DNA of 64,000 bases from a virus, in IMG/VR virus record IMGVR_UViG_3300042452_000786, positions 1 to 64,000 of that record. One strand, written 5' to 3'. Below are positions 10,524-62,727 of the stretch, one piece after another (position 1 is the stretch's first letter; the number at the start of each line of letters is the position of its first letter). The notes below the pieces were generated by a model, which was not told the DNA's origin, searched no databases, and saw only the letters and a program-made list of their open reading frames with translations. Both the position numbers and the translations under genes were made by a program.

Positions 10524-10676
10524 TTAAGCAGGAGGGAATCCTTCGTCAAGATTCGGAATAGCAGTTGTGGTCGGTTTTACACTTCCCATTGTCTGGTATT
10601 TTTTGTTTCCAGCTCCAAGACGTTCTTCAATAAAGTTCCTCAAGAATTCCTCTGTTACTGCATTGTCTCTGTTCAT
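10524..10676 (-). CDS. small protein MNRDNAVTEEFLRNFIEERL... (50 aa, not in ORF track)
   Basis: Translated by hand; ATG overlaps stop of the upstream basic peptide. Confidence 0.55.
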   Translation of the reverse strand: MNRDNAVTEEFLRNFIEERLGAGNKKYQTMGSVKPTTTAIPNLDEGFPPA

Positions 10677-10774
10677 TTCTTTTTACCTCCGTTTTTTGCT
10701 TTCTTGGCAGCAGCATTGCCAGCATTCTGCTTGGCATTTGCTGACTGTGTTTTCTTGTTTGTAGCTTTTGCCAT
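10673..10774 (-). CDS. small Lys/Ala-rich basic peptide MAKATNKKTQSANAKQNAGNAAAKKAKNGGKKK
   Basis: Translated by hand; TAGTAT -10-like box 4 nt upstream of ATG. Confidence 0.55.
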   Translation of the reverse strand: MAKATNKKTQSANAKQNAGNAAAKKAKNGGKKK

Positions 10775-10841
10775 TTTAATACTATTTTCCTCTTGCCATC
10801 CTACCAAAAGCAACTACACTGGTTGCGCTCCACCCAAAACC

Positions 10842-11012
10842 ATGGAACCTCAGCGTATCAACGACATCAAAAAATCCCTTCACGACATGACCATGGAGGA
10901 GCTTCAGGAAATGTCGGATGATCTCGGTAATCTCATTGCAGTCTTGGTTACGCGCCAGGTCGCAATTGAAGACACAATCCTCGATCGCCTTGAGGCTGCA
11001 TTCAGTAAATGA
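10842..11012 (+). CDS. hypothetical coiled-coil protein (MEPQRIND...)
   Basis: Internal ATG of track ORF 10521; ATGA-coupled to the dCMP deaminase gene. Confidence 0.55.
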   Translation: MEPQRINDIKKSLHDMTMEELQEMSDDLGNLIAVLVTRQVAIEDTILDRLEAAFSK

Positions 11013-11479
11013 CTCCTCAAGAAGAAAAGTGGCACATCCGTTTCTTGCGGTTAGCTGCTGAAGTTTCTACCTGGAGCATCGATCCATCAACGAAAGTCGG
11101 TTGTGTCCTGGTAAAAAACAAAAGAGTTATTTCAACAGGATACAACGGCTTTCCTAAAAACATCAGCGATAGCTTTGATCGTTTGATGGACCGTGAACAA
11201 AAGTACGAAATTACTGTTCATGCAGAAGTTAATGCTGTCACAACAGCTGCACTCCACGGTGTCAGTACTGAAAACTGTACTGCTTACGTCACTTTCTCTC
11301 CATGCAGTCGCTGTGCTTCTGTACTTGTTAACGCTGGTGTTACTGCCGTCTACGTTGCGGGAGGCAGTGTTATTCCTGACCGTTGGTTAGATAACTTCAT
11401 ACTAGCCAGCAAGATCCTGGCAGAGGCCAGGGTAAAGTACAAAGTCGTCGACGCTTCTCAACCTCTTCAATTGCCATGA
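11009..11479 (+). CDS. dCMP deaminase (ComEB family)
   Basis: STKVGCV, TGYNG, HAE and SPCSRC zinc motifs. Confidence 0.93.
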   Translation: MTPQEEKWHIRFLRLAAEVSTWSIDPSTKVGCVLVKNKRVISTGYNGFPKNISDSFDRLMDREQKYEITVHAEVNAVTTAALHGVSTENCTAYVTFSPCSRCASVLVNAGVTAVYVAGGSVIPDRWLDNFILASKILAEARVKYKVVDASQPLQLP

Positions 11480-12183
11480 ACCTCATCTTTGCTTCTGCTT
11501 TTTACGTCGGAGAAACTTTTACAGACAGTGGTCTGCGTTTTATGCAACTCACTATCCCTTCAACTGGGAAGAATGCGGCTCCGGTACCTCTGTATGTTGT
11601 CCCCAACAAAGCTGCAGGTGAAACATTCGATGCATTCGCTCCAGGGTGTAACCTCCTGGTAAGTGGTCGCCTCTACCCAAACCGTAACGACTACAAGATG
11701 TATGTCGTACCAAACCAACCCCTTCAGGTTGTCGCTAAAGAAGTAAACGTCAACCAGGTAAATCTTGCAGGCGGTGTTGGTTACATCGCAGAACAAAAGA
11801 TGGAAGATCTCTACAGTTTCTCGCTGATGTGTAAAGCTCCCTCCCAGGCAATCCTCAACCACTCCTGGCAGGACAGCATGGGTTTCCGCGTGGAAAGCTG
11901 GGGTGACGACGCTAAGCGGCTGAACAACTTGCTCTACGTCGGTCGCCAGATGGCTTTGGCTGGTTCGCTTCGTTACAACACCTGGCAAGCTCAGGACGGT
12001 TCTCATCGCGCCACATACCAAGTCAGGGTTCGGGCGTCACAGTACTCCCTCTTTGGTAAAAATCAAGCCAAGGACACGCAGCAAGCAGCCCCTGCACTGC
12101 CTGTTCAGCAAGGGGGAGAGGTCAGAACCGTTGTGGCAGCAGCGCCCTCATCCTTTGAAGAGACCGTTGACCCGCCGTTCTGA
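11476..12183 (+). CDS. ssb: single-stranded DNA-binding protein (tandem OB-fold)
   Basis: VNQVNLAGGVG...FRVESWG...GRQMALAGSLRYNTW; acidic tail ending DPPF. Confidence 0.75.
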   Translation: MNLIFASAFYVGETFTDSGLRFMQLTIPSTGKNAAPVPLYVVPNKAAGETFDAFAPGCNLLVSGRLYPNRNDYKMYVVPNQPLQVVAKEVNVNQVNLAGGVGYIAEQKMEDLYSFSLMCKAPSQAILNHSWQDSMGFRVESWGDDAKRLNNLLYVGRQMALAGSLRYNTWQAQDGSHRATYQVRVRASQYSLFGKNQAKDTQQAAPALPVQQGGEVRTVVAAAPSSFEETVDPPF

Positions 12184-12374
12184 TCCATAAGATAAAGTAA
12201 TGAATGATGGGTGGGACAGGGTGTCCTACTCGACTACGCTTGCACAGGTGGAACCGGCTGCAGTTGCTTCGGCTGCAGCTTTTCATCCTTGGGCCGACGC
12301 CGGTGGTGGCTTTAAACCATCCGCTGTTCAGGTTTAACTCCTGTTCCAAGGACAACTGCCCACTTACAAAAGAC

Positions 12375-13298
12375 ATGTCTGTTCTCGACCGTTACCTAAA
12401 CACTGAAAAGTATCAAGGTGAAATGCGTGATCTGGTTAATGCCCAGATCCTCAATGACAAAACTCAGTGTGGTCTCTTCTTGAAAGATACTGCACTTGCA
12501 CGTATCGGCTGGTCTGGAAACGCTAAGCAGTTTCCTAAAGCTGAAGAGTACGTCCACACGTACAACAATGGCGACAAGAACGAAGGCATCTTCTTTAAGA
12601 CGCCGCGCATGGTGGTTCTCCACTGTGGTTTCCGTAAAGATGTAACCTTCATCGAAAACTCTGATAAAGGTGGCATCGAAGGTCTCTACCCCAGGGATTC
12701 ATTTCTGTATGACGATTGGGAAGCTGCTAACCCCAACAAGCCAAGCCCCTACAAGCGTCGTCGCCTTGTACTGATCTTCCTGGTGGACGCAAACGGTGTA
12801 GCTGTGCACAAAAAACCGTTGATCCTTTCGATTCACGGCGGTGCATCGAACCTGTTCTGCGACGCTTACTCCACGTTCATCGAGCAGCTTGAATCTGCTT
12901 TTGCTGATCGTATGGGTCTTAAGTCTGCTGCAGGTTTTGACCCCAAGCAAACTGCCGCTGCTATCTTCACTCCGACATTTGGCTCGCAGCTCTACGGCGG
13001 TGACAAAGCCAAGTCTTGGATTGCTTATCCCGAAAAGTGGGTGACGCCTACTGCTGAAACCGTGGAAGATTTCTTCCCCAAAGCAGAAGATGACATCGAT
13101 TTCATCGAGAGCGTCTGGGAAACCTGCCCTCCTGAAGTGTACGCCTCCAGCTTCTTCAAGCAGTGTGAAAAGGAGATTGGCTATCACGCCATCAAGCCGG
13201 GTCTTGACTTCACCCTTCCGCCCGTTGAGTCCTCAAAAAACTCCCGTGTTCTGCTCGGGGCCAGGGATGAAGACACGGGTGAAATCACCCTCGACTGA
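12375..13298 (+). CDS. conserved replication-region protein (possibly DUF5895-like or ssDNA-annealing)
   Basis: Strong codon bias, next to SSB, followed by a terminator; family call tentative. Confidence 0.5.
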   Translation: MSVLDRYLNTEKYQGEMRDLVNAQILNDKTQCGLFLKDTALARIGWSGNAKQFPKAEEYVHTYNNGDKNEGIFFKTPRMVVLHCGFRKDVTFIENSDKGGIEGLYPRDSFLYDDWEAANPNKPSPYKRRRLVLIFLVDANGVAVHKKPLILSIHGGASNLFCDAYSTFIEQLESAFADRMGLKSAAGFDPKQTAAAIFTPTFGSQLYGGDKAKSWIAYPEKWVTPTAETVEDFFPKAEDDIDFIESVWETCPPEVYASSFFKQCEKEIGYHAIKPGLDFTLPPVESSKNSRVLLGARDEDTGEITLD

Positions 13299-13317
13299 TC
13301 GTTGACTGTTGTTTATG

Positions 13318-13343
13318 GCCGGGCCGTTTGGTCCGGCTTTTTT
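13318..13343 (+). terminator. intrinsic terminator
   Basis: GCCGGGCC-GTTT-GGTCCGGC followed by T6. Confidence 0.8.
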
Positions 13344-13344
13344 C

Positions 13345-13569
13345 GTGGCTAGCAAATTATCTGAGATCAAGAAGCACCTAAAAAAGTATGGGTGGCTCCT
13401 AGTAAAAAACGGAACAAATCATTTCATCTATGGCAAAGATGAAAAGATGATCCTTATACCAAAAGGCAGGAAGATATACTCCAGGAGTTATAAGCAACTC
13501 CTGTGGAAGATTGAAGGTAGGACTGATGTCAGTAAAGAGCGTCAGCTCAGTTTTGATATCGAGTCTTAA
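13345..13569 (+). CDS. hicA: HicA-like mRNA interferase
   Basis: EIKKHLKKYGW....GTNHFIY......IP resembles the HicA GSH motif and fold. Confidence 0.65.
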   Translation: MASKLSEIKKHLKKYGWLLVKNGTNHFIYGKDEKMILIPKGRKIYSRSYKQLLWKIEGRTDVSKERQLSFDIES

Positions 13570-13792
13570 TTACATCAGCTTCTAGGTTTGCAAGCCTTTT
13601 AACCAGGCCACGAATCACTCCTTGACGGAGAACTGCTAAATGCAAAAGCTTCAACGCACCTAGCTTGATTTGTTCTATGTCAGTTACAGCTTCAATTTCT
13701 TTTGTGAGTTTTGCAATCAAAAACTCATCTTCAAGTGTTGACTCAAAGTTCATCGCGTCAAACGGAACTTCAGTCAGCTCAAACTCAGACAT
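13547..13792 (-). CDS. NblA-like protein (divergent)
   Basis: TLEDEF...two amphipathic helices, like the NblA LSLEQQF pattern. Confidence 0.45.
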   Translation of the reverse strand: MSEFELTEVPFDAMNFESTLEDEFLIAKLTKEIEAVTDIEQIKLGALKLLHLAVLRQGVIRGLVKRLANLEADVIKTRYQN

Positions 13793-13860
13793 TGTCTTTG
13801 AGCATAATGCCCAGTCTACATAGTTCACGCCTTGCTTGTGTTACCACGTATACAAAAAAC

Positions 13861-16502: not shown

Positions 16503-16513
16503 TAAGATAAAAA

Positions 16514-27301: not shown

Positions 27302-27664
27302 TCAGATAGAAAGTCTTTTGCGGTTCTGTTTTATGATTCCTGGAGATTTTTCTTGAAAGTCTTTCCAGGTTGGATATGCTTCCATGTATCGGTTTGTACC
27401 AGTGCGATTCTCCCGCATCCACCTGTCAACACTTCGATCATCAATGTAAGGAACCATATCAAAAGAAGCAGCCTGTTTTACGCCAGGTTGGCCAAATTTT
27501 CTGCGAAGATCGTCAAAAAAACCAGGTGGCGGGGGAGTCCCTGGCTTGTTCATTTTTTCTAGTACATCAGGAGGTACCTCTTGTCCAGGTGATCCTCCCC
27601 ATGCAGGCTGCTCTTGATTGCTTGCAAGAAAATTTTTCAAAAAAGCAATGCCACTATAGTCCAT
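27302..27664 (-). CDS. hypothetical protein (possibly virion-internal)
   Basis: Pro-rich; N-terminal AFLKNFLA. Confidence 0.55.
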   Translation of the reverse strand: MDYSGIAFLKNFLASNQEQPAWGGSPGQEVPPDVLEKMNKPGTPPPPGFFDDLRRKFGQPGVKQAASFDMVPYIDDRSVDRWMRENRTGTNRYMEAYPTWKDFQEKSPGIIKQNRKRLSI

Positions 27665-27666: not shown

Positions 27667-28563
27667 TCAGGAACCAAAAGCTCCTTTACCCTGCATCCCC
27701 TTAAGAACACCTAAGTTCTTCAAGAAATCTTCGGCTCGGTCGCCCACCGGCATCTGGGAAGACGCGTTCTGAGGGTTTGTTTTGGCAGCAGCCAGAGCAT
27801 TAGCTTGAAAGTACGGTGCGCTTACAGCTTGACCCTGGGTCATGGCGCCGCCGGGAAGCTCAAAAGGCTTCATGATAGGGTCTGTACCAGCAAGGGAGCT
27901 GGTGTCAAAGCCACCTGCAGCGTAGTCGGCGGCTTCTGGTTGTGCGGTCGTGCCAAGGAGTTGAGAAGCTTTACCGCTCTTGGCGTACTCACGCTGAGCC
28001 AGCATGGGGTTAGCTCGGGCCCACTCAGCCATTGGTCCCTGGTAACCCATGGCAGAGATGATCTCCTCCATGTTCCCACGGCCTGCAGCGCTCTGAGAGC
28101 GGTAGTAGCTTGCCAGGGGAGTGTCGGTCGGAGCTTTTGTCTGGCCCGCTAACGCCTGCATAGCCGCAAGGTCCTTGGGGGCTCCAGCGCCACGGGAAGC
28201 AGCACCAAAATAAGGATCCATTTCGCTGCTGCCGAAGTAGCGATCAAATTGACCCTGAGGATTCAAAGCGTATTGCTTGTAGAGATCGGATTGAGTGCGG
28301 TCAGGTGTTACGCCGTCACGGGTGCCACGAACAATGGGAGTGGGGCGTTGCCCAGGAAATCCTGCACCTGCACGAAAATTCTCTGCTGCCTGTCCAGCCG
28401 CTAACTCAGCCTGTTTGTAGTTAGTGGGAAGGTTGCGGACGCCAGGTTGCCACATTTTGTCGGGGCGATCAGTTAAACCTTGCACACGATTTAACCAATC
28501 AACTGCATCTTGGAGTGGGCCCCAAGGCTTCCCACCTGTTGGACGACTAATAGGAACAGGCAT
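27667..28563 (-). CDS. Ala/Gly/Gln-rich disordered protein (possible internal virion protein)
   Basis: 298-aa ORF; amino-acid composition. Confidence 0.6.
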   Translation of the reverse strand: MPVPISRPTGGKPWGPLQDAVDWLNRVQGLTDRPDKMWQPGVRNLPTNYKQAELAAGQAAENFRAGAGFPGQRPTPIVRGTRDGVTPDRTQSDLYKQYALNPQGQFDRYFGSSEMDPYFGAASRGAGAPKDLAAMQALAGQTKAPTDTPLASYYRSQSAAGRGNMEEIISAMGYQGPMAEWARANPMLAQREYAKSGKASQLLGTTAQPEAADYAAGGFDTSSLAGTDPIMKPFELPGGAMTQGQAVSAPYFQANALAAAKTNPQNASSQMPVGDRAEDFLKNLGVLKGMQGKGAFGS

Positions 28564-33766: not shown

Positions 33767-34389
33767 ACAAACCAAAAATTCCGTGGCATGAATACAAGAA
33801 TTTTCTTGGCCGTGTAAAACACATTACTCATGATTGGCTCACCCCAGTTGATTATTTACCTTATATTGACGCATTACTTGGTGATATTGATCTTGATCCT
33901 TGTTCAACACATCATGCAAATGCGCAATTTTTAAGGGCAAGAAAAGTTTACACCCTAAAAGAAGACGGTCTGAACATCAATGAACCTTGGACTGGTAAGG
34001 TTTATCTGTTTCCACCAACCTATGGTCGCTGTTCTTTCAGTAAAGAACGTGGTACATGGCGCTGGAGTATGAGAGCTTCAGGAGTTTCAAAAGCTCCTTC
34101 AGTTATTTGGTTTAGGCGCTTGCTAAAAGAGTGGAAGCTTCGGAATATCAGCGAAGCTTTGTTTTATACTATCTACCCAGAAATGCTAAGGGTGTGCCCA
34201 GAGGTGTGGGATTATCCGATGTGTTTCCCAAAAGACCGAGCAAATCTAGTTCACGGACACAAGTTATTTACTTTGAAAGCCCCTGTCCATTGGGGGTACT
34301 TCATCTATTTACCTCCAATGGATCTTGGCTCAAATCAGATAGAGAAATTTGACGAAATTTTTTCGCACATTGGCAAGGTTATTTACTAG
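33763..34389 (+). CDS. phage Dam-like N6-adenine methyltransferase homolog with altered catalytic motif
   Basis: DWLTP, DLDPCS, DGL...W; motif IV reads FPPTY instead of NPPY. Confidence 0.7.
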   Translation: MNKPKIPWHEYKNFLGRVKHITHDWLTPVDYLPYIDALLGDIDLDPCSTHHANAQFLRARKVYTLKEDGLNINEPWTGKVYLFPPTYGRCSFSKERGTWRWSMRASGVSKAPSVIWFRRLLKEWKLRNISEALFYTIYPEMLRVCPEVWDYPMCFPKDRANLVHGHKLFTLKAPVHWGYFIYLPPMDLGSNQIEKFDEIFSHIGKVIY

Positions 34390-34600
34390 CCCTGAACGAG
34401 TTTTTAAACGAATACGTTCCATCACCAGGACCAGCAACTACGAAACGGTCTTCCGATGCTCTTTCCTGACCTAAACGGTCAGCAATTTTACGACGCTTGA
34501 TGTAACTGGCAACAAACTGCTTGCTTGTTTTGTTGTCGACAGCACGTTTTGTTTCTGCGTACCTTGCGTCAACGTCGTATGTTTGGCTAAGCTGTTGCAT
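34379..34600 (-). CDS. hypothetical protein
   Basis: TAGAAT 6 nt upstream of ATG (leaderless). Confidence 0.55.
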   Translation of the reverse strand: MQQLSQTYDVDARYAETKRAVDNKTSKQFVASYIKRRKIADRLGQERASEDRFVVAGPGDGTYSFKNSFRASK

Positions 34601-35007: not shown

Positions 35008-35742
35008 CTACTGTTGCTGCGGAGACTGTTGACCACCTGGCTTCATGCTCCAGTAACGAAAAAATCTCCTCATTACCTCTCCAGATTCATCCCAAGCAGA
35101 AATCTTTCTCTCTAAATATTCAACAGCTTTAATTTGATACGGAGACCCATTCCAAGTCTCGCAAAGATTGAGCAAACAATACTTGTTTTCACAGGTGTGT
35201 TTGAAGTACGTCGTTATTTCCCTGTCTGGCTCCAGGTAAGTATTCAACTCTGCACGTCTACGCGCAACAACAATATCGCCACCTGACTGCCAAAGAGTGT
35301 TGATGTAAGGGCTCCACTCACGTATGATCTCTTTACGAGGAGCACCGCTATTAATCAACTGCAGAAGCCTGCTGTTTTTAAATGAAACAATTCCCAAGTT
35401 GTAAGCAAAACTTACAAGTGCGGCTTTTTTGTTATCGTTTAGCCTGACAAAAATGTACGGTTCCAGCTCTTTAGAAAACGCTTTTAAATCTTCTACCAGT
35501 TGTTTGTCAATTTTCTCTTTATCTGTTCTATCGTAAAAATTAACGGAGCGTTTTCCAAGTTTGCGGCTGCCGTATCCAATGCGCCAAAAATCTTCCCCAT
35601 ACAACTTGTATGCTGCATACCGGTTCATCCCAATGCAAGTTTGCGGGATCGTGTATTTTTTGATTAGGTCCACTCCTTTTTGCACCAGTAGCGGGTAGAC
35701 CGTTTTATTTTTCTCGTGTTCCTGTTCTTTTTTATGGGACAT
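35008..35742 (-). CDS. GH24 lysozyme-like protein lacking the catalytic Glu
   Basis: GVDLIKKY, IGYG, ALVSFAYNLG, RRRAE; no FEG. Confidence 0.7.
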   Translation of the reverse strand: MSHKKEQEHEKNKTVYPLLVQKGVDLIKKYTIPQTCIGMNRYAAYKLYGEDFWRIGYGSRKLGKRSVNFYDRTDKEKIDKQLVEDLKAFSKELEPYIFVRLNDNKKAALVSFAYNLGIVSFKNSRLLQLINSGAPRKEIIREWSPYINTLWQSGGDIVVARRRAELNTYLEPDREITTYFKHTCENKYCLLNLCETWNGSPYQIKAVEYLERKISAWDESGEVMRRFFRYWSMKPGGQQSPQQQ

Positions 35743-36385: not shown

Positions 36386-36544
36386 TCAACAAGAAGGCCG
36401 AACCATTTCTGGGAGCGGGCGATAGGTTTGATCCACTGCAAAATGCGGATCATCAAATGCGCCGTCAAAAACTTTTTCAGAGTTGTCAGGGAATAGTGAC
36501 GTTACGTATTTTTGCAGGTGGTCTTTTGGTGTAATGTGATCCAT
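36386..36544 (-). CDS. small hypothetical protein (52 aa, not in ORF track)
   Basis: Translated by hand: MDHITPKDHLQKYVTSLFPD... Confidence 0.4.
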   Translation of the reverse strand: MDHITPKDHLQKYVTSLFPDNSEKVFDGAFDDPHFAVDQTYRPLPEMVRPSC

Positions 36545-46593: not shown

Positions 46594-46782
46594 TCAGACC
46601 TTGATTACCCCACGGGCTACTTTGTCATTAACACTGTCAGGAACTTCACCCTTTGTTAACTGATCGAACCCAGACGGAATCCGTCCCTTCTGCAAGGAAT
46701 CAATGCTGTCGATATAGTTAGCAAGAAAAACCGTTGAGTCGCGTTTAGCTTGCGATCCATCCGATGTAGGAATCACTGGCAA
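46594..46782 (-). CDS. small hypothetical protein
   Basis: Contains VFLANYID. Confidence 0.45.
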   Translation of the reverse strand: MPVIPTSDGSQAKRDSTVFLANYIDSIDSLQKGRIPSGFDQLTKGEVPDSVNDKVARGVIKV

Positions 46783-47820: not shown

Positions 47821-49080
47821 TCAAAGTTTTTTAAAGTTTAACCAACACCAGCCACTTCCGCCACCCTCAACAAAAAACCTGGGGTCAGTGTTCTTGAAAC
47901 TGTAACGAACATTTTTTCCAGCTTCTGCGCCGGTCTTTGCCCAGCCTCCGTTAACGAGATCAAGCTCTCCATACGGGTCCTGTACCAGCCAGTATCCATC
48001 CCCATATCCAGAAATAACCACGAAGTGACCACTACCAGAAGGATCAGATACAGCTCCATGATGAAGAATACCGGCAACAACAGGTTTGCCTTTGTCGATC
48101 TGATCTTTGACATCTTGCTCATCTGCTGTCTGCGTGAATTTAGCATCAACGTTTAATTCTTTCAAGGCACAGATATGTGGGTAACGCGCTGGACTATCAC
48201 CGTACTTATTGACAATCTTTAAGTAATCTATATCGTCATTAATACCAGGCACGTCTAAGTACTTTAAGCACATAGCAATGCTGCTGGATTGGCATTGGCG
48301 CCAGCCTTGAGGACCGTTATCAACTTGATAAAAGTAAGGGAAGTTGCGCAGGTAACGAAGATCACCTGTAGTCGCATACGGCTTGACTTCTGTTGTTGTT
48401 ACAAGTCCCTCCCAATGTTCATCAAACACCCACCACTTACCGAGGCCAAAGCCTAATTCAAGAAGCGTGTGTTTATCTTTTTTATCAAGAACCTTACAGT
48501 TTCGAATTGTACGTTTTGCAACAACTGAAGACTTTTCATCATTGCTTAATTCCGATGAAGGAATAGGACGTTTTTTGAACCAGGTTTTTGTGTTGCTGGT
48601 AATCTCAACTGTTCCTGTTTTTAACTCGGGAGCAGCAGAACAAAAAACTTCAACTTCTTGAGTTCGTCTACGACTCAAACCTTCTAAAATTTTTCCATCT
48701 CCTTTGTTCCAGCGGGGCAGCTCTTCTTTGGCTACTGTGTTTGGGTCTTCTCCAGCATTTAGGCGCTTAAGTAGAGTGGATTGACCAAGGGCACCGGCCC
48801 CGACGTTAAAACAAAAAGAAACAAGAGCATCAAACTGATGCTGATTAATCGGCACCTTAACAAGGTTCTCTACTGCTTTTTCTGTGCTGGCAAGATCAGC
48901 CTTCAATAAAATTTCTGCATGCGCCGACGTAATCTGCGTATTTGGTTTAACGTCTGGACCTGTGTGACCGTAACCTACAGTCCAAATCCCTACGGCATCT
49001 TTATAGGAGACGCAACGTAAACCTTCAAAAGCTTTAATTAGTTCGATTCCAGCTTTAGATGTTTTCATTAACGCAGTCAA
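47821..49080 (-). CDS. modular endolysin: GH24 lysozyme + C39-like peptidase
   Basis: FEG..D..G.WTVGYGHT; C-terminal QCQSSS, GHFVV, QDPYG. Confidence 0.9.
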   Translation of the reverse strand: MTALMKTSKAGIELIKAFEGLRCVSYKDAVGIWTVGYGHTGPDVKPNTQITSAHAEILLKADLASTEKAVENLVKVPINQHQFDALVSFCFNVGAGALGQSTLLKRLNAGEDPNTVAKEELPRWNKGDGKILEGLSRRRTQEVEVFCSAAPELKTGTVEITSNTKTWFKKRPIPSSELSNDEKSSVVAKRTIRNCKVLDKKDKHTLLELGFGLGKWWVFDEHWEGLVTTTEVKPYATTGDLRYLRNFPYFYQVDNGPQGWRQCQSSSIAMCLKYLDVPGINDDIDYLKIVNKYGDSPARYPHICALKELNVDAKFTQTADEQDVKDQIDKGKPVVAGILHHGAVSDPSGSGHFVVISGYGDGYWLVQDPYGELDLVNGGWAKTGAEAGKNVRYSFKNTDPRFFVEGGGSGWCWLNFKKL

Positions 49081-56311: not shown

Positions 56312-56626
56312 TCAGTAGAGAAAGGGAACCCTGATTTCTGCTCTTCCTACATCAGGCAACGGCTCTGTGGATGGCGTACCAGTTGAGTTTATGAACGCTT
56401 GAAGGGCTTCTCCTGCCATACGCGCTTTACGAGGAGCGCCGGTCATTCCAGGCCCTGTACTGGTTGCAGATGGACGTTCGTAGGGAGGAGCGTTGCGGTT
56501 CAGTCCCAGGGTGTAGCCAAGTTTAAAGTCGCCTGGCCTTGCCACGGGAGGCTCATTTTTCCTACCCCAATCGTCTGGATGCTCCGTAGGCTGCACAAAA
56601 CGATTAAAGCTGCTAAGACGTCGCAT
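56312..56626 (-). CDS. hypothetical disordered protein
   Basis: Directly follows the M23 gene. Confidence 0.5.
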   Translation of the reverse strand: MRRLSSFNRFVQPTEHPDDWGRKNEPPVARPGDFKLGYTLGLNRNAPPYERPSATSTGPGMTGAPRKARMAGEALQAFINSTGTPSTEPLPDVGRAEIRVPFLY

Positions 56627-57298
56627 CTATCCCAACCCAAATGAGGAATACACGTTGGAAGGAGCAGCAGCTGATGTCAGCATTTTATAGATGGAGTTAG
56701 CTGAAAGAGGCGACTCTTTTTGTTGCTGAAGGTTTTCTTCAATAAAAGAAGTAAGGTAGTCTTTAGAAGATTTTTGTTTTTTTGGTTGAACGTAGAAGTT
56801 GTATGTAACGTTTGTACCAAAAGCGTCAGTTAATTGAGTTTGAGGTTGCGGTTGAACAGTTGTTTGCTGTGTGGGTTGAAGCTGAGTTTCTTTTCCTCCT
56901 TTGGTGTGAAGAAGACGAACTTCGTATCCTTCTGGGGTTGTAATGCTTCCGTACCCTTTGCCAGGTTTAAAAGTTCCTGGGCCCTCCCAGAACAGCTGCT
57001 CTCCTCCTGCAATACCGTAATCAATGCCCTTGTGGTCTGTTGATGCACCAGCCGTAGGAGCGACCCTAGGGCCGTAACCAGAAGTAATTGCAAATCCCGG
57101 AGACCACTTGTCTCCTTGTTGCCGATAGAGCGGTGTACGAGCAGATCCAATTTTTAAACGTTGTAAACCTGAGCGCCAAGTAGATGGATCAATATACTGA
57201 CCGTCTTTAAGAACACGAACATCGAGATGTGGGCCAGTAGAAGGGAGAACGTCTTCTCCGCTTTTTGCTACATATCCGACGTGCATGCTGTTGGTCAT
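56627..57298 (-). CDS. circularly permuted M23 (LytM-like) peptidase
   Basis: STGPHLD..IDP precedes ITSGYGPR...HKGID...GYG...LLH. Confidence 0.75.
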   Translation of the reverse strand: MTNSMHVGYVAKSGEDVLPSTGPHLDVRVLKDGQYIDPSTWRSGLQRLKIGSARTPLYRQQGDKWSPGFAITSGYGPRVAPTAGASTDHKGIDYGIAGGEQLFWEGPGTFKPGKGYGSITTPEGYEVRLLHTKGGKETQLQPTQQTTVQPQPQTQLTDAFGTNVTYNFYVQPKKQKSSKDYLTSFIEENLQQQKESPLSANSIYKMLTSAAAPSNVYSSFGLG

Positions 57299-58026
57299 CA
57301 GCTCATACCAAAACCAAAGTTCTGAGGAGTGCTGGCGGCGCCAGCAATTGCACTAGCCATGTCAGCAACGTTTAAATTGTTACGGCGACCAAGAGCTAAG
57401 GTTCGCATGAAATCCATGGGATCAACAGATTCTTTTTGGTCTTCATCTGTTAAATAAATGTTGTAGGTAATTCCACCTGGGGTTTGAGCTTGTCTTGCAG
57501 CTACGGGTTGTTGTGTAAGTTGTTGTGTGGGTTGCGTTGTTTTTGGAGTTGTGCCAAAAACTTTTTGTAGATCTTTTAAAGACTTGACCGGTTGTCCGTA
57601 ATAGCTTTTACCGCTTTGCGTGGGGAACGATGCCCACTCCGGAGATAAAGCGGCCGCAACTTCTGGAGACAACCCTTCTTTTTCTAAACGTGCAAAACCA
57701 CCAATTGGTTTTAAACGTTGATGCGCTAAGTACGTACCAGCAATGTCTTGCTCTTTAGGGCCAAAACCTTTTAGTCCAAGTTTTTTTGAAACAGATTGCC
57801 AAGTCGGTGTTAAAAATTGATAGGCTCCAGCGGCGGTGCTGGTGTATCCACCTGAACTGATTGCTTGATCTGGATGGCGACTTAAATCAGAAAACTTTTT
57901 ACCACTGAACTGTGTTTGGTAGCCTTGAGGACCAGCTGTTCCTTCTGCGTAACGAATTGCGTTAAGCAGCTTTTGCACAGAAGGATTCTGTACTTGTTGT
58001 TGGTAAAAAGCTAGATCTTCTGCCAT
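57298..58026 (-). CDS. lambda-R-like lytic transglycosylase (GH104)
   Basis: LNAIRYAEGT, STAAGAYQFL..TW, EWASFP; start trimmed to MAEDL. Confidence 0.88.
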   Translation of the reverse strand: MAEDLAFYQQQVQNPSVQKLLNAIRYAEGTAGPQGYQTQFSGKKFSDLSRHPDQAISSGGYTSTAAGAYQFLTPTWQSVSKKLGLKGFGPKEQDIAGTYLAHQRLKPIGGFARLEKEGLSPEVAAALSPEWASFPTQSGKSYYGQPVKSLKDLQKVFGTTPKTTQPTQQLTQQPVAARQAQTPGGITYNIYLTDEDQKESVDPMDFMRTLALGRRNNLNVADMASAIAGAASTPQNFGFGMS

Positions 58027-58048
58027 GACTGATGCAGCTGATGAGGAT

Positions 58049-58528
58049 TTAGCGGAAGCTGTTGTTGAGCATAAGTCGAGTGCCAACAGCAACGTCAGCG
58101 GGGCCAGGAAGTGCTTGGATAAACTCAGCGCCTTCCCGATTAAACCGATACCTCGCTTGTTCAGGATTTCGGTAATTGGGGACATAAAGATGAAGGGCTA
58201 GTCGATCCGTCTCGTATAGATAAATTGCCGTCCAGGTTTTTAGCGTGTCCCTAAAATCAGAAGTTGCAATCGTACGATCAACGTCACCAGCGATGCTTTC
58301 AATACGATTACGAGGAACGGTGTTATTGTTCACGCTACCTGTCATGTCTGTGCGTTTTTCAGCCTCATCGCACCGACCGACCTGTTCGACAATCTTGCTA
58401 TACCAGAACGAATCTGGGATGTTGTTGACAGCTTCCTCTAGCCGCGCTTGGTCACCAGCGGGGATGGATGTAGTGTTGTACCCCAGGTGCCAGCGGACCT
58501 TTGATTTAAGGAAGGTATCGAGTTGCAT
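58049..58528 (-). CDS. putative head-tail adaptor / head completion protein
   Basis: Helical KVRWHLGY N-terminus; position after the capsid genes. Confidence 0.55.
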   Translation of the reverse strand: MQLDTFLKSKVRWHLGYNTTSIPAGDQARLEEAVNNIPDSFWYSKIVEQVGRCDEAEKRTDMTGSVNNNTVPRNRIESIAGDVDRTIATSDFRDTLKTWTAIYLYETDRLALHLYVPNYRNPEQARYRFNREGAEFIQALPGPADVAVGTRLMLNNSFR

Positions 58529-58602
58529 TAGTTTTTATTAATGCGTTTTTGGGTATCGCAGGCTATAGCTATACCCAGTAACACACTAGCACGCGCAAAT
58601 TA

Positions 58603-59043: not shown

Positions 59044-59100
59044 TCCATAGGAGTGACAACTACCAATACAATACCAACATTAACCTTGTTGCGCTACTGA

Positions 59101-59907: not shown

Positions 59908-59921
59908 TGTTAGTTACCTCC

Positions 59922-61874
59922 TCAAACGATGGTGAAAGCTGCGGTGACGAAGTCCTTGTTCAGGTTGGCAAAGCCAGCGTACAGCTGCCAAATCAAGATG
60001 ATAAAGCGGCTGAAGTCATCGTTGTTGTTGATGAGAACCTGAGCGTTGGGGCCACCGATGCCCACGCCAACGGCCTGAGGACCGAAGAACAGAGCAGGAG
60101 GAGTGTTGTGAGACACAGCGCCGAGACCGTCGCCAGTGTCCACAGTGATGGACTTGTCAGCAAAGTTGGTGGACTCGAAGAAACGTACGCCTTCAAAGAC
60201 AAAGCCAGAAGGCATGATCGGTTCACCAGCCACGAATTGAGCTTGGCCGTACTGACCGCCGCCATAGATGGAGGCGTTGGGAGCCATGGCACCCATAAGG
60301 GGGTTAGGCTGGCCCATGCCAGGGTAACGAGCCACTTCACGGAAACCTTGGTCAGCACGCAGATCCTTCATGAAAGAGGGATCAGCAATACAGCGGTAGT
60401 AACCGTCAGCAAAGACAGGCACATTGCGCTTGCGGAGTTGCTTGACAACTTCCAGAAGGTCAGTTTTGACGTTGAACTTATAACGCTCAGAAGCGTATTC
60501 TGTAGCGGAATAAGCAGTCAGCGTGGTAGAGCCAGTCTTGATCTTACCGTTGGGGTAGTAGTAACCACCTTGGGTGTCAGAAGAGGCACCACGAGCTTCC
60601 GATTTCGAAAACTCATCAAGGAACACACGATCGCGCCAGCGGCGATAGTCGTCTAGCAGGGTCAGCGAACCGATGGACTGGTGGAACATGTTAAGGTTCC
60701 CGGTGTCCAGCAGCAGACGCTGAGCGGTCATCAGAGTCTCACGAGCAATTTTGAAAGTGCTCGGGAGGTTGGAGTTGTTCGGGTCGGCAGGACCAGTGTA
60801 CTCACGCAGAGAGACGAGCACTTTGTCCTTAACGATGGAGCGGCTATTAGCCGTACCAATCGTTTGGTCTTGGGTACGCTCACGCTGAGTTTTGGTGCCG
60901 GGGTTGCCCCAGAAACGGTACCGGTCTAACTGAACAGTTTGACCAGGCTGTTTAGTGAAGTCGTGGACAACAACAGGCTCGGCTGCCATTTCCACAATAT
61001 AAGCCGGGTGGGGACGGTACAGCTCCGCGCCCAACAGCTTGGGAAAATCGTTCTCCTGATCTCCAGTCTCCTGAAGGGGTGGACTATCTCTTCACCCTGT
61101 AAGGGTGCCGGGCGCTAATGGCGTATTACGAATGAAGCGTCATTCACCGCCTAGTCTCTGCACCTTCCAACTACGTACTTAGTTGGCTTGGCTCAGGATT
61201 ACCCTCGACTTGACGTTAGGGCTTCCCTGAATTCACCCGGTTTTCACTGATCAGTTGCCTGATCAGGCGACAACGTTGACTACTCAGCTAAGTCGTGTTA
61301 GGATTGGAATCAAGTTGTTTTTATACAACATGGAACCAAAACTTGTTCCTGGATTTGAAAACCTTTACTTGAGCTTTTCTGGGACTCCTTATCAAAAAAT
61401 CAATGAAGACTTTGTTGAATTAAAGGTCAGCTCATCAAGCATGTACGACAGGGTTTCTGTTCTTAAAAATGAAAAGAAAGAAAGGCACCATGTACACGTT
61501 CTTATGGCTGTGACATTTTTAGATTTAGATTTAGCTTTACACGGAACCGGAAGTGCTTCTCTTCAAGTTGATCACAAAGACGGAAACAAAAGAAACAATT
61601 CTCTTGAAAACCTTGAAGTTGTTACAAAAAGAGAGAATTACGATAGGGCGTTAAAAGCTGGGTGCTACTCTAAAAATGGTTACGCCAGTAAAGGTAGGCC
61701 AAAGAAAACATTAAGAAAGTTTTCGGAGGATGACATTGTGCAGATTAAAGAAATGAGATCAGACGGTCTTTCTTATAGAAAAATTGCTGCTTACTTTAAC
61801 TGCAATCACTTGGCCATTTATCAAATCTTAAAAGGAAAAACCTATCAGGATCTGAGTTAGCTATCGATAAACAT
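59922..61874 (-). CDS. major capsid protein, spliced: exon 1 61874-61863 (MFID) joined to exon 2 61052-59922 (NDFPKLLGAELYRP...), 380 aa
   Basis: HK97-like features (GQTVQL, GVRFFEST, FFGPQAVG, DDFSR..W); in-frame join across the group I intron. Confidence 0.88.
61276..61304 (+). promoter_or_regulatory. sigma70-type promoter for the intron HNH gene
   Basis: TTGACT-17 nt-TAGGAT with TG extension. Confidence 0.75.
61330..61860 (+). CDS. intron-encoded HNH homing endonuclease, antisense to the intron
   Basis: HVHVLMA..F...QVDHKDGNKRNNSLENLEVVT..EN; C-terminal HTH. Confidence 0.9.
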   Translation: MEPKLVPGFENLYLSFSGTPYQKINEDFVELKVSSSSMYDRVSVLKNEKKERHHVHVLMAVTFLDLDLALHGTGSASLQVDHKDGNKRNNSLENLEVVTKRENYDRALKAGCYSKNGYASKGRPKKTLRKFSEDDIVQIKEMRSDGLSYRKIAAYFNCNHLAIYQILKGKTYQDLS

Positions 61875-61989
61875 GTTGGTAATTCAGCGTAAGTTTTAGC
61901 TGAAACCAGGATCTGGAGGATCCTTGGGTACAGTAGTTTCCGGTTTCCCGTAACCGCTGCTTGCCTGGAACTTCCGTCCCATTGAAAAA

Positions 61990-61998
61990 ATTATAGCA
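61990..61998 (-). promoter_or_regulatory. extended -10 promoter of the capsid gene
   Basis: TGcTATAAT on the minus strand, ~115 nt upstream of ATG. Confidence 0.6.
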
Positions 61999-62026
61999 AC
62001 CCTTTATCAATCCAGATTATTTAAGT

Positions 62027-62290
62027 TCAGTAGTTGACCATATGCGGAGCATTGTGACCGGCAAGCATATTACCTGCTGTATATGACGTTGGAGCCATTG
62101 TACCGGTTGCTCGATAAGGATTGATGTAACCGTCTGCTGGTTGCAGTGAGATGGAAGAAGCTTGAACTTCAGGGTTAATTCCAGCGGTAGCACTCATCAT
62201 GCCAAGGGCTGCTGCTGGATCTTCCTGTTGCGCAGTTTTTTTACGACCTTTTGATTTGCTAACTGCTTTTTTTGCTTTTGCTTTGTCCAT
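62027..62290 (-). CDS. hypothetical protein with Lys-rich N-terminus
   Basis: Coupled ORF in the head module. Confidence 0.6.
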   Translation of the reverse strand: MDKAKAKKAVSKSKGRKKTAQQEDPAAALGMMSATAGINPEVQASSISLQPADGYINPYRATGTMAPTSYTAGNMLAGHNAPHMVNY

Positions 62291-62727
62291 CAGCGGTTAC
62301 CTTTCTTTTGGGGAACGGGAGGCATAATACCCATGGGAAGTTGTCCACGCATCGGCATCATTTGTGACATCATCATTTGCTCACTGGCGAGCATCTGATC
62401 TTGTGTAATTTCTGTTGCTTTAACATTACGATCTGTAAACAAACCATGTTGTGGCAACGGAGATCCTGGAAGGTTTAACTTTAGGTAGGCAGCATCCAGG
62501 TTTTGTGCCATTGGAGGTTGCGGAGCACGAGGATCACCAACACCGGTTCCGTCACTCATCATTCGCACAGCAGCAAAATGATCTGTGTTACCTGCTTGAA
62601 CCTGCTGTGCAAGATCGTAACCACCAAAACCAACCAATGAAGGTGAGCCAATTGGTCCGCCAGCTGTGCCAATACTGGCCAAGAACTGTTGCGTCCTGGC
62701 ACCCACACTGGCTTTTTTTGATGCCAT
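62290..62727 (-). CDS. hypothetical Met/Pro/Gln-rich protein
   Basis: ORF in the head module. Confidence 0.6.
   Translation of the reverse strand: MASKKASVGARTQQFLASIGTAGGPIGSPSLVGFGGYDLAQQVQAGNTDHFAAVRMMSDGTGVGDPRAPQPPMAQNLDAAYLKLNLPGSPLPQHGLFTDRNVKATEITQDQMLASEQMMMSQMMPMRGQLPMGIMPPVPQKKGNR

What the first reader, a model, noticed from the sequence alone, without database searches (positions are those of the whole stretch)
10524..62727. Shared amphipathic F-L-x-x-[FY]-I motif in about 10 unrelated minus-strand proteins: candidate capsid cargo-loading signal
Seen: EEFLRNFIEE (10524-10676), IAFLKNFLAS (27302), EDFLKNLGVL (27667 C-terminus), KQFVASYIKR (34379), KDHLQKYVTS (36386), TVFLANYIDS (46594), EALQAFINS (56312), KDYLTSFIEE (56627), MDFMRTLAL (57298) and QQFLASIG (62290). 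All lie on the virion-gene strand, and the motif mostly sits in otherwise low-complexity or disordered sequence. Inference: a common docking helix recruiting diverse cargo, including muralytic enzymes, to the capsid interior, scaffold or portal. This would be analogous to T4 capsid-targeting sequences or encapsulin cargo peptides. The motif is short, so chance matching is a real risk.
Basis: partly seen in the sequence, partly recalled or inferred. Interest (0 to 1): 0.75.

Follow-up and report, generated by a model that had tools for sequence, protein, structure and literature searches.

The report
Shared tail on two phage wall-cutting enzymes
The proposed ten-protein targeting motif is no commoner than chance, but two of the ten, neighbouring cell-wall-cutting enzymes of this cyanophage, share a real, conserved C-terminal tail of about 60 residues that most likely tethers both to one partner.

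Summary
All ten peptides exist on the minus strand. Only two fit F-L-x-x-[FY]-I, and one of those lies in a doubtful 50-codon ORF.

The motif is not enriched. A pattern loose enough to cover all ten occurs 36 times in minus-strand proteins against 33 in shuffles. Its rate is 2.06 per 1000 aa here, against 2.05 in T7 and 2.69 in P-SSP7. A scoring matrix built from independent sequences finds 10 hits forward and 9 in reversed proteins.

Two carriers are truly related: the M23 peptidase (56627-57298) and the lambda-R-like transglycosylase upstream of it (57298-58026/58185). Both end in a homologous tail of about 60 aa (profile-profile E 9e-6). It has a strand, a helix P-x-D-F-L-x-x-[YF]-phi, a second helix and an aromatic-Gly end.

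- The tail follows a disordered P/Q-rich linker.
- It is kept while the upstream enzyme swaps among four catalytic cassettes.
- The two copies co-vary by phage clade.
- It matches no Pfam family.
- In every related locus it matches, it sits on exactly two proteins.
- A distant relative fuses SLT and M23 in one protein.

Most likely it is a docking module for virion-delivered wall hydrolases. Capsid-interior loading is untested. The other eight sites show no detectable relation to it.

The parts
56627..57298 (-). M23-type peptidase, 223 aa: catalytic domain (residues 1-140), disordered P/Q/T-rich linker and C-terminal tail
   Evidence: tblastn to the S-EIVl 'peptidase M23 family' protein, 44% identity, E 3e-30. 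Profile against PDB M23 chains, E 7e-4. AF2 gives pLDDT above 90 for residues 1-140 and below 50 for 146-173. 298 homologues of about 200-230 aa in the listed set.
56630..56812 (-). Tail of the M23 peptidase (residues 163-223): strand VTYNFYV, helix 1, helix 2, end ...SSFGLG
   Evidence: Alignments. Tail HMM score 68.9 bits. hhalign against the tails of the upstream hydrolase, E 9.3e-6.
56726..56767 (-). Helix 1 of the M23 tail (AF2 residues 178-191). Family consensus: P-x-D-F-L-x-x-[YF]-phi.
   Evidence: In 120 homologues Leu182 is L in 118, residue 185 is Y in 96 and F in 23, residue 181 is F in 75, and Asp180 is D in 62. These are the most informative columns of the tail. The 181-190 block has the highest pLDDT within the tail, about 70.
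56669..56701 (-). Helix 2 of the M23 tail (residues 200-210)
   Evidence: AF2 secondary structure. Pro200 is conserved in 91 of 116 sequences that have a residue there.
57298..58185 (-). Lambda-R-like lysozyme/transglycosylase with the same kind of tail (the gene just upstream of M23). The ORF is open from 58185, but the true start is probably the ATG at 58026-58024, giving 242 aa.
   Evidence: phmmer to lambda lysozyme 1am7, E 3.9e-11. phrog_90 endolysin, E 1e-27. The upstream 137 bases (about 45 codons) overlap the conserved 159-aa gene. P0008, the database's gene call for the L012-type protein, starts after that overlap.
57301..57474 (-). Tail of the transglycosylase (58 aa): ITYNIYL, then DPMDFMRTLAL, then DMASAIAGAAS, ending NFGFGMS.
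   Evidence: Tail HMM score 64.6 bits. The tail is kept at 86% identity in L004, where the catalytic domain is replaced.
58049..58528 (-). Conserved 159-aa neighbour of unknown function. It adjoins the hydrolase pair in every related locus that covers this region. It is a candidate partner only.
   Evidence: phrog_29158, E 8.5e-58. 83-94% identity in the more distant related loci (L006-L015) and 59% in S-EIVl.
27620..27649 (-). Listed site IAFLKNFLAS in gp120 (27302-27664). It is a conserved helix of its own family. The relation to the tail is weak and not significant.
   Evidence: Homologues keep G-[IF]-x-F-L-[KR]-x-[FY]. hhalign against the tail: probability 14-23%, E about 1e-3.
27703..27732 (-). 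Listed site EDFLKNLGVL near the C-terminus of gp298 (27667-28563). It is a conserved island after a diverged stretch of about 80 aa. No relation to the tail was detected.
   Evidence: L018 homologue ends ...PVGDRTREFLQKIAK. hhalign probability 0.3%.
34493..34522 (-). Listed site KQFVASYIKR in gp73 (34379-34600). Not related to the tail.
   Evidence: F29 is invariant and Y/F33 is conserved in 14 homologues. hhalign probability 3%.
36497..36526 (-). Listed site KDHLQKYVTS in gp52 (36386-36544). Not related to the tail.
   Evidence: H-L-x-x-Y is invariant in the five aligned sequences; weaker tblastn hits vary at the first position. hhalign probability 2%.
46705..46734 (-). Listed site TVFLANYIDS in gp62 (46594-46782). 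Not related to the tail.
   Evidence: F-L is conserved but the aromatic at +4 is not, for example FLKSKS. hhalign probability 2%.
56384..56410 (-). Listed site EALQAFINS in gp104 (56312-56626), the gene just downstream of M23. Not related to the tail.
   Evidence: The segment is conserved as A-[LM]-x-x-F-[IF]. hhalign probability 0.1%.
62668..62691 (-). Listed site QQFLASIG in gp145 (62290-62727), between the scaffold-like ORF and the capsid gene. Not related to the tail.
   Evidence: F-L-x-x-[IF]-G is conserved in homologues of 52-54% identity. hhalign probability 0.2%.
10623..10652 (-). Listed site EEFLRNFIEE in a doubtful 50-codon ORF (10524-10676)
   Evidence: No family match. It is overlapped by a + ORF in the gap after the minus gene 9616-10440. 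No homologue was found in the loci held.

Best explanation
The ten sites are not one signal. Eight of them are ordinary amphipathic-helix segments of unrelated small proteins, and one of those eight sits in an ORF that may not be a gene.

The real feature is a homologous C-terminal tail of about 55-65 aa carried by exactly two proteins of this S-EIV1-like cyanophage. These are a lambda-R-like transglycosylase and the M23 peptidase encoded directly downstream of it, in the structural gene block between the capsid gene and the tail genes.

The tail follows a disordered P/Q/T-rich linker.

Inferred mechanism: the tail is a docking module that folds on binding. It ties both wall-degrading enzymes to one common partner, either a virion component or each other. 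They would then travel with the particle and open the peptidoglycan at infection. The catalytic domain acts as an exchangeable payload.

Shown here: homology of the two tails, their conservation, the cassette swapping, the co-variation by clade and the lack of a confident autonomous fold. Inferred: the docking function and virion association. Not tested: which partner it binds, and whether the site is the capsid interior.
For: Chance-level frequency of the broad motif:
- Loose pattern 36 observed against 33.4 in shuffles.
- Independent scoring matrix: 10 forward hits against 9 in reversed sequences.
- Rates equal to those in T7 and P-SSP7.

Only two carriers:
- The tail HMM finds only the two hydrolases in the six-frame genome (68.9 and 64.6 bits; the next hit has E 0.12).
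- It finds exactly two proteins in every related locus it matches.
- A search of 1.84 billion representative proteins finds only hydrolase-plus-tail proteins and short tail-bearing fragments (contig-end pieces) of this lineage.

Homology of the two tails:
- hhalign probability 82.8%, E 9.3e-6 over 55 columns.

The motif is the core of the tail:
- L182 is conserved in 118 of 120 homologues, and residue 185 is aromatic in all 120.

Modularity:
- The gene upstream of M23 carries a lambda-R-like domain, SLT PF01464 in two sequence types (weak L004/L012-type matches of 21-25 bits and strong P0002/L054-type matches of 57-72 bits), or SLT_3 PF18896, always with the same tail. This holds even between phages that are otherwise 98-100% identical, such as the window and L004.

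Co-variation:
- M23 tails resemble the transglycosylase tails of their own clade, with BLOSUM sums of 52-102 within clade against -2 to 47 across clades.
- In L054 both tails end in MLINAFxQxPNY, although the DNA differs at synonymous sites.
- There is no DNA similarity between the two tails in the window.

Structure:
- AF2 gives a confident catalytic domain, a disordered linker and two helices of moderate confidence. No confident fold or docked position is predicted for the tail.

Virion context:
- The genes lie between the capsid gene and the tail genes.
- Apart from S-EIVl, the M23 domain's matches in isolated phages fall, where annotated, in tail or tape-measure proteins.
- A separate GH24 plus C39-like endolysin candidate (47821-49080) and a second GH24 (35008-35742) lack the tail.
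- In the distant relative L055, SLT and M23 are fused in one 441-aa protein next to tail genes.
Against: - No direct evidence places either enzyme in the virion. The S-EIV1 paper was not held, and no solved relative exists for the capsid protein or its 268-aa neighbour.
- The tail occurs only on peptidoglycan hydrolases. That would also fit a wall-binding or regulatory role.
- Co-variation of two adjacent paralogous segments could partly come from old gene conversion.
- The 82.8% profile probability rests on shallow alignments of 9 and 10 sequences.
- The S-EIVl and L053 clades have a longer, different tail that the HMM does not recognise. Only helix 1 (D-[IL]-L-E-A-F) is shared.
- The M23 tails in L006-L008 lack the aromatic-Gly end.
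Confidence: 0.6

Rival explanations
1. One reading: one short amphipathic helix (F-L-x-x-[FY]-I) is a common cargo-loading signal. It recruits about ten unrelated proteins to the capsid interior, scaffold or portal.
For: - The anchor residues are conserved in homologues of gp52, gp62, gp73, gp104, gp120, gp145 and gp298.
- The sites lie near protein termini in G/P/Q-rich sequence.
- The intermediate pattern occurs 6 times on the minus strand and 0 times on the plus strand.
- gp120 aligns weakly with the whole tail (probability 23%, E 9e-4).
- The best independent matrix hit (GFLNRYL, 72505-72954) lies in the G/A/Q-rich cluster (67818-72954) that an earlier, untested scan note proposed as ejection proteins.
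Against: - Frequency equals that in reversed sequences and in unrelated phages.
- Only two of the ten sites fit the stated consensus.
- One carrier is a doubtful ORF.
- Profile-profile probabilities are 0.1-3% for six of the seven families tested.
- gp52 and gp73 sit among + strand genes without structural annotation.
- Conservation of hydrophobic helix positions is not specific evidence.
Confidence: 0.08
2. The tail is not a virion-docking element. It is instead a substrate- or envelope-targeting, or regulatory, extension of two lysis enzymes, for example a cell-wall-binding module or a membrane-association helix.
For: - The tail is found only on peptidoglycan hydrolases.
- The catalytic families (lambda-R-like, SLT, M23) are typical of endolysins.
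- Modular lysins with a C-terminal binding domain after a linker are well known (general knowledge).
Against: - There is no match to any Pfam wall-binding family, even at E up to 10.
- No confident autonomous fold is predicted (pLDDT 61.6).
- The phage's endolysin-type GH24 proteins lack the tail.
- The genes sit in the structural block rather than beside the GH24 plus C39-like endolysin candidate at 47821-49080.
- An intramolecular regulatory role is unlikely, because the same tail serves two unrelated enzyme classes (M23 peptidase and lysozyme/transglycosylase domains of several families).
Confidence: 0.2
3. The two tails bind each other. They would form a hetero-oligomer that assembles a bifunctional glycosidase plus peptidase complex, whether or not that complex is part of the virion.
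For: - There are exactly two carriers per genome, always adjacent.
- The two tails co-vary clade by clade.
- A relative fuses SLT and M23 in one chain with no tail matching the HMM. This is the classic fused-gene argument for interaction.
- The start of the M23 gene overlaps the stop of the upstream gene by one base (coordinates).
Against: - In the S-EIVl stretch examined, no tail-bearing gene precedes M23, yet M23 keeps a tail with helix 1. The lysozyme annotated about 9 kb downstream has no such tail by eye.
- Nothing could be computed about oligomerisation here.
Confidence: 0.12

Closest known systems
phi29 gp13, a bifunctional tail-tip peptidoglycan hydrolase with a lysozyme-like and an M23 domain (from general knowledge, not checked here)
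   Same: It uses the same pair of activities, a glycan cutter plus an M23 endopeptidase, for wall penetration. The relative L055 has the fused SLT-M23 form.
   Different: Here the two activities are separate proteins, each with its own copy of a shared tail. No sequence relation to gp13 was tested.
Encapsulin cargo-loading peptides (from general knowledge)
   Same: Both are C-terminal, follow a flexible linker, carry a short conserved hydrophobic core and sit on otherwise unrelated payload enzymes. The shell protein has the same broad fold class as phage capsids.
   Different: The sequence motif differs: D-F-L-x-x-Y plus a second helix and an aromatic-Gly end, about 60 aa rather than about 10-40. 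Binding to the capsid interior is untested, and there are only two payloads.
T4 capsid-targeting sequence of the internal proteins (from general knowledge)
   Same: Both involve the idea of a short shared peptide that directs diverse proteins into a phage particle.
   Different: The T4 signal is N-terminal, about 10 residues long and removed by the prohead protease. The tail here is C-terminal, about 60 residues long, and no prohead protease or cleavage site was identified.
Dockerin-type modular docking in cellulosomes (from general knowledge)
   Same: Different glycoside-hydrolase catalytic domains carry one conserved C-terminal docking module after a Pro/Thr/Gln-rich linker, and catalytic cassettes are exchanged while the module is kept.
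   Different: There is no sequence or fold relation and no Pfam match. No scaffoldin-like partner is known, and no calcium-binding repeats are present.
Virion-associated peptidoglycan hydrolase domains inside tape-measure, tail or internal core proteins (for example the T7 gp16 N-terminal transglycosylase)
   Same: A peptidoglycan hydrolase is encoded among structural genes. Apart from S-EIVl, the M23 domain's matches in isolated phages fall, where annotated, in tail or tape-measure proteins.
   Different: Here the enzymes are small free-standing proteins. Their only non-catalytic part is the shared tail, rather than being domains of large structural proteins.

Membership tests
   Loose pattern 36 against 33.4 in shuffles. 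Scoring matrix 10 forward against 9 reversed. Rate 2.06 per 1000 aa against 2.05 in T7 and 2.69 in P-SSP7.
   Only 2 of 10 fit F-L-x-x-[FY]-I. Profile comparisons with the tail give probabilities of 0.1-23%.
   Anchor residues are conserved in the gp52, gp62 (partly), gp73, gp104, gp120, gp145, gp298, M23 and transglycosylase families. This is not specific, because hydrophobic helix positions are usually conserved.
T4-type capsid-targeting sequence | An N-terminal peptide of about 10 residues | tested here: not met
   In the two related carriers the element is C-terminal and part of a module of about 60 aa.
T4-type capsid-targeting sequence | Removed by a prohead protease at a consensus site | not tested
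   No prohead protease was identified. The HExxH protein at 9616-10440 has homologues beside the capsid gene in L011 and L015, but it was not examined further.
Encapsulin-type cargo-loading peptide | C-terminal position, preceded by a flexible linker, on unrelated enzymes | tested here: met
   The linker at residues 146-173 has pLDDT below 50. The tail occurs on M23, lambda-R-like, SLT and SLT_3 domains.
Encapsulin-type cargo-loading peptide | Binds the interior face of an HK97-fold shell | not testable with these tools
   No multimer prediction is available, and no solved relative of the capsid protein exists.
Known cell-wall-binding domains (LysM, SH3b, PG_binding, SPOR) | Sequence match to the family model | tested here: not met
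   Pfam scan of 17 tails at E up to 10 gave only scattered single chance hits. The full proteins had no hit.
Known cell-wall-binding domains (LysM, SH3b, PG_binding, SPOR) | An autonomous compact fold | tested here: inconclusive
   AF2 on the tail alone gave pLDDT 61.6 and two helices. In the full-length protein the tail scored 41-70. The alignments may be too shallow to decide.
Virion-associated peptidoglycan hydrolase | A peptidoglycan-hydrolase catalytic domain | tested here: met
   M23. Lambda-R-like. phrog_90.
Virion-associated peptidoglycan hydrolase | Encoded within the structural gene block | tested here: met
   Minus-strand gene order is portal, scaffold-like ORF, gp145, gp87, capsid, gp268, gp146, gp159, transglycosylase, M23, gp104, gp263, gp766 (weak tail-spike and baseplate matches), gp143 (minor tail). 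The core order is the same across L002-L016.
Virion-associated peptidoglycan hydrolase | Physically present in the particle | not testable with these tools
   No proteome was available. The S-EIV1 paper was not held.

The most novel reading that the evidence does not exclude
The tail is a true, transferable virion-loading tag of the abundant S-EIV1-like freshwater cyanophages. It would be functionally equivalent to an encapsulin cargo peptide or the T4 capsid-targeting sequence, but C-terminal and about 60 aa long. Its helix 1 (phi-L-x-x-[FY]-phi) would be the contact element. Degenerate copies of that helix in gp120 and in some small G/P/Q-rich proteins would use the same receptor. Any payload could then be packed into these particles by appending the tail.
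Probability: 0.12. Interest if true: 0.7.

Novelty: new variant of a known kind. Interest (0 to 1): 0.4.

Why it matters
How tailed phages place small free-standing enzymes in the particle is known for only a few model systems. This case offers a compact, sequence-defined candidate docking tag. It sits on interchangeable wall-degrading payloads, in a phage lineage that is common in metagenomes: 298 M23 homologues were found, mostly from metagenome sources, and the one cultured relative came from an arctic lake.

The hypothesis is directly testable with tail-GFP fusions or tail deletions. If it holds, it would give a handle for loading cargo into cyanophage particles and a marker for annotating virion hydrolases.

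The negative result also matters. Loose amphipathic patterns of the form phi-phi-x-x-phi-phi occur about twice per 1000 residues in any phage proteome. They should not be read as shared signals without a reversed-sequence or foreign-proteome control.

Tried and rejected
- Recent gene conversion as the cause of the tail similarity was rejected. There is no DNA similarity between the two tails in the window or in L007. In L054 the shared MLINAF segment differs at synonymous sites.
- A signal peptide or lipoprotein-like N-terminus on the transglycosylase (LAPLTLLLALDLCS) was rejected. That stretch is the out-of-frame overlap with the conserved 159-aa gene (phrog_29158). The likely start is the ATG at 58026.
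- A LysM-like beta-alpha-alpha-beta fold for the tail is not supported. Pfam gives no match, and AF2 predicts two helices and no strands at low confidence.
- Auto-inhibition by the tail docking on the active site is unlikely. The same tail serves two unrelated enzyme classes, and AF2 predicts no confident docked position for it.
- The similarity between the gp298 C-terminus (VGDRAEDFLKNLG) and the gp145 N-terminus (VGARTQQFLASIG) was judged to be chance. The VGxR part is not conserved in gp145 homologues.
- The ESM Atlas look-up for the tail gave nothing usable.
- Megablast against isolated phages found nothing. S-EIVl is the only isolated relative found by capsid protein search.
- The S-EIV1 paper could not be read.
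- A de novo motif search (MEME-type) on real against shuffled proteomes was considered but not run.


Full report
**What the window is.** The window is the first 64 kb of a 75,874-bp phage genome. Megablast finds no close relative among isolated phages. The capsid protein is 70% identical to that of Synechococcus phage S-EIVl (KJ410740), and that is the only isolate it matches. The M23 peptidase also has its best isolate match there. Many related contigs exist in IMG/VR, and the M23 peptidase has 298 homologues in the large protein collection. The phage therefore belongs to an abundant, mostly uncultured S-EIV1-like lineage.

**Check of the observation.** All ten peptides are present in minus-strand frames.

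- Only EEFLRNFIEE and TVFLANYIDS fit the stated consensus F-L-x-x-[FY]-I.
- The first of these lies in a 50-codon ORF (10524-10676) in the gap after the minus gene 9616-10440. It is overlapped by a + strand ORF and has no family match or homologue in the loci held. I treat it as an unverified gene.
- The minus strand is not purely a virion strand. It also carries a protein with a C-terminal S-adenosylmethionine decarboxylase match, an HNH nuclease, a DNA-binding protein and a GH24 lysozyme.
- The genes for gp52 and gp73 lie among + strand genes without structural annotation, and this arrangement is conserved in many related contigs.

**Is the motif more than chance?**

- A pattern wide enough to include all ten sites occurs 36 times in the 66 minus-strand proteins, against 33.4 +/- 5.4 in composition-preserving shuffles. 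It occurs 13 times on the plus strand against 19.4.
- An intermediate pattern, [FY][LVM]xx[FY][ILV], gives 6 against 2.7 (4% of shuffles reach it) and none on the plus strand. This was chosen after seeing the data.
- To avoid circularity I built a 12-column scoring matrix from the tails of the two hydrolase families only and scanned all other proteins. It gave 10 hits of 8 bits or more against 4.0 +/- 1.9 in shuffles.
- Shuffling destroys the i, i+3/i+4 periodicity of real helices. The same scan on the reversed real sequences gives 9 hits.
- T7 and P-SSP7 proteomes give comparable rates: 0.44 and 0.21 per 1000 aa against 0.50 here. For the loose pattern the rates are 2.05 and 2.69 against 2.06 here.

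**What is real.** Printing the carriers showed that two adjacent muralytic proteins end alike. Their similarity goes far beyond the six-residue motif.

- The M23 peptidase (56627-57298) ends ...VTYNFYVQPKKQKSSKDYLTSFIEENLQQQKESPLSANSIYKMLTSAAAPSNVYSSFGLG.
- The upstream lysozyme-like protein (57298-58185) ends ...ITYNIYLTDEDQKESVDPMDFMRTLALGRRNNLNVADMASAIAGAASTPQNFGFGMS.

The enzyme assignments hold. The first protein matches the S-EIVl M23 peptidase (44% identity, E 3e-30) and PDB M23 chains by profile (E 7e-4). The second matches phage lambda lysozyme 1am7 (E 3.9e-11) and phrog_90.

In sixteen related IMG/VR loci both proteins keep this tail. Its architecture is:

- a P/Q/T-rich linker;
- a hydrophobic strand ([IV]TYN-phi-Y-phi, or INI / VTV in other clades);
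- a charged spacer;
- helix 1, P-x-D-F-L-x-x-[YF]-phi;
- a variable spacer;
- helix 2, phi-[AS]-x-A-[LI]-T-[SA]-A or MLINAF;
- a terminal P-x-N-Y-F-[GA] or F-G-x-G.

A profile of the transglycosylase tails aligns with a profile of the M23 tails over 55 columns (probability 82.8%, E 9.3e-6). In 120 M23 homologues the most informative tail columns are Leu182 (118 of 120), the aromatic at 185 (Y 96, F 23), Phe181, Asp180, Pro178, Pro200 and Asn216-Tyr217.

**Properties of the module.**

1. *Distribution.* An HMM of the tail finds only these two proteins in the six-frame translation of the whole genome. It finds exactly two proteins in every related locus it matches. In 1.84 billion representative proteins it finds only seven true hits, all from this lineage. 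Three are SLT-type transglycosylases with the tail, and four are short fragments that consist mostly of the tail, read here as contig-end pieces of M23 genes. Three further hits are repeat artefacts.
2. *Independence from the catalytic fold.* The gene upstream of M23 carries four different catalytic cassettes. These are a lambda-R-like domain (window, L013-15), an SLT-like domain with a weak PF01464 match (L004/5/16, L012; L009-11 by sequence likeness to L012), an SLT_3 domain PF18896 (L006-8), and a domain with a strong SLT match (P0002, P0011, L054). All have the same kind of tail. The window and L004 are 98-100% identical in the flanking genes yet differ in this cassette, while the tail stays 86% identical.
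3. *Co-variation.* The two tails of one phage resemble each other more than they resemble tails of other clades. BLOSUM sums are 52-102 within clade against -2 to 47 across clades. In L054 both tails end in MLINAFxQxPNY.
4. *Not recent gene conversion.* There is no DNA similarity between the tails in the window or in L007. In L054 the shared peptide is encoded with synonymous differences.
5. *Structure.* AlphaFold2 on the tail alone gives pLDDT 61.6 and two helices. With a 120-sequence alignment of the whole M23 protein, the catalytic domain is confident (above 90), the linker at 146-173 is disordered (below 50), and the tail forms two helices at 178-191 and 200-210 with blocks scoring about 70 and 63. 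No confident fold or docked position is predicted for the tail.
6. *No known family.* The tail matches no Pfam family even at E up to 10. The ESM Atlas gave no useful lead.

**Context.** On the minus strand the gene order is portal (63290-65557), a scaffold-like 333-aa ORF, gp145, gp87, the capsid gene, gp268, gp146, gp159, transglycosylase, M23, gp104, gp263, gp766 (weak tail-spike and baseplate matches), gp143 (minor tail) and then the fibres. The core of this order is kept in the related loci.

- Apart from S-EIVl, the M23 domain's matches in isolated phages fall, where annotated, in tail or tape-measure proteins of Acinetobacter and Moraxella phages.
- The genome has two further GH24 lysozymes, 47821-49080 (with a C39-like domain) and 35008-35742. 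Neither has the tail.
- In a distant relative (L055) one 441-aa protein combines SLT (PF01464, 59 bits) and M23 (PF01551, 26 bits, just under the curated cut-off). It has no tail that the HMM detects and lies a few kb downstream of tail-gene homologues. This is the phi29 gp13 arrangement and is a fused-gene argument that the two activities act together.

**The other eight sites.** Their anchor residues are conserved in their own families, except that no homologues were found for the 50-codon ORF:

- gp73: F invariant and Y/F conserved in 14 homologues.
- gp52: H-L-x-x-Y invariant in the five aligned sequences.
- gp145: F-L-x-x-[IF]-G.
- gp104: A-[LM]-x-x-F-[IF].
- gp120: F-L-[KR]-x-[FY].
- gp298: F-L-x-x-[LI], forming a conserved island after a diverged stretch of about 80 residues.
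- gp62: F-L only.

This shows they are functional helices, but it does not link them to each other. Profile-profile comparison with the tail gives probabilities of 0.1-3% for six families. For gp120 it gives 14-23% (E about 1e-3), and that alignment spans helix 1, helix 2 and the aromatic end. gp120 is the only one I would keep as an open lead, and only six homologues exist.

**Mechanism.** The module has these properties:

- It is separated from the enzyme by a flexible linker.
- It is kept while the enzyme is exchanged.
- It is held alike in two co-encoded proteins by selection on the peptide.
- It is restricted to two wall hydrolases in the structural block.
- It has no confident fold of its own.

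The best reading is a docking element that folds on binding a common partner. That partner could be a virion component or the other tail. Both enzymes would then be delivered together at infection, with helix 1 (D-F-L-x-x-Y) as the main contact. This is inference. Neither virion presence nor the partner could be tested.

The logic matches encapsulin cargo peptides. I have no evidence favouring it over the portal, the tail or a neighbouring small protein such as the highly conserved gp159. The main rival is a wall-binding or regulatory tail of lysis enzymes. It is weakened by the gene location, by the tail-less GH24 proteins and by the lack of any fold or family match, but it is not excluded.

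**Comparison and novelty.** In function the module resembles dockerin-type modules, encapsulin cargo peptides and the T4 capsid-targeting sequence. The enzyme pair resembles phi29 gp13. It is not a member of any of these families by sequence, position or length (see the membership table).

I rate it a new variant of a known kind: modular virion-type wall hydrolases with a previously undescribed shared tail. The ten-protein cargo signal as proposed is not supported. An earlier scan note on this genome had flagged the M23 peptidase as circularly permuted. I did not test that claim beyond confirming that the protein is M23-like.

Noticed in passing
window 57298-58185 compared with L004:9138-10001: Two phages that are 98-100% identical in the flanking genes carry different catalytic cassettes in the gene upstream of M23 (lambda-R-like against SLT-like). 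The upstream overlap and the C-terminal tail are unchanged. This looks like a recent cassette exchange.
   Followed up: partly
window 58049-58528 (-) and 58245-58541 (+): The 159-aa minus-strand ORF matches phrog_29158 (E 8.5e-58) and is 83-94% conserved in the more distant related loci. The 98-aa + strand ORF over it is probably a shadow ORF. The first 45 or so codons of the long transglycosylase ORF are an out-of-frame overlap with this gene.
   Followed up: partly
window 9616-10440 (-): This 274-aa protein has an HELGH (HExxH) motif and no family match. Its homologues (29-34% identity) lie directly upstream of the capsid gene in L011 and L015. It may be a metalloprotease linked to head assembly.
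   Followed up: no
L055:6001-7326: A single 441-aa protein combines an SLT transglycosylase domain and an M23 peptidase domain, as in phi29 gp13. It lies a few kb downstream of homologues of the window's tail genes.
   Followed up: partly
L053:2902-4053: This M23 homologue has an extra N-terminal region of about 200 aa that begins FFFGDSIAVGYGG, which resembles a GDSL esterase motif. Pfam finds only the M23 part. Its tail is of the S-EIVl type (DLLEAFLYGTQY...).
   Followed up: no
window 27667-28563 compared with L018:3001-3918: gp298 is identical over residues 1-200 apart from a single substitution, then completely different for about 80 residues. It realigns only at the C-terminal PVGDRxxxFL island. 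This indicates mosaic exchange inside a G/A/P/Q-rich protein upstream of a tail-fibre gene.
   Followed up: no
window 47821-49080, 35008-35742, 56627-58026: One 76-kb genome carries four peptidoglycan hydrolases: a GH24 plus C39-like protein, a second GH24, a lambda-R-like transglycosylase and an M23 peptidase.
   Followed up: partly
window 62821-63822 (-): A 333-aa Q/P/A-rich ORF overlaps the 3' end of the portal ORF. It is conserved in length and sequence (40-78% identity) in the more distant related loci and S-EIVl. It is probably the scaffolding protein, so the + strand ORF 62782-63225 is probably not a gene.
   Followed up: partly
genome 70439-70858 and 72505-72954 (beyond the window): A Gly-rich 139-aa protein ends ...AAPWFG, which resembles the aromatic-Gly end of the tails. 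The best independent matrix hit for helix 1 (AQGFLNRYLQG, 14.4 bits) lies in the 149-aa protein at 72505-72954, in the same cluster of G/A/Q-rich proteins.
   Followed up: no
L023-L045, about 2 kb upstream of the gp244 homologue: Homologues of gp62 (window 46594-46782) lie within a few kb of the gp71-gp128-gp244-gp73 block in other contigs of the lineage (with a gp52-like match in some). In the window, gp62 is 10 kb away from that block.
   Followed up: no
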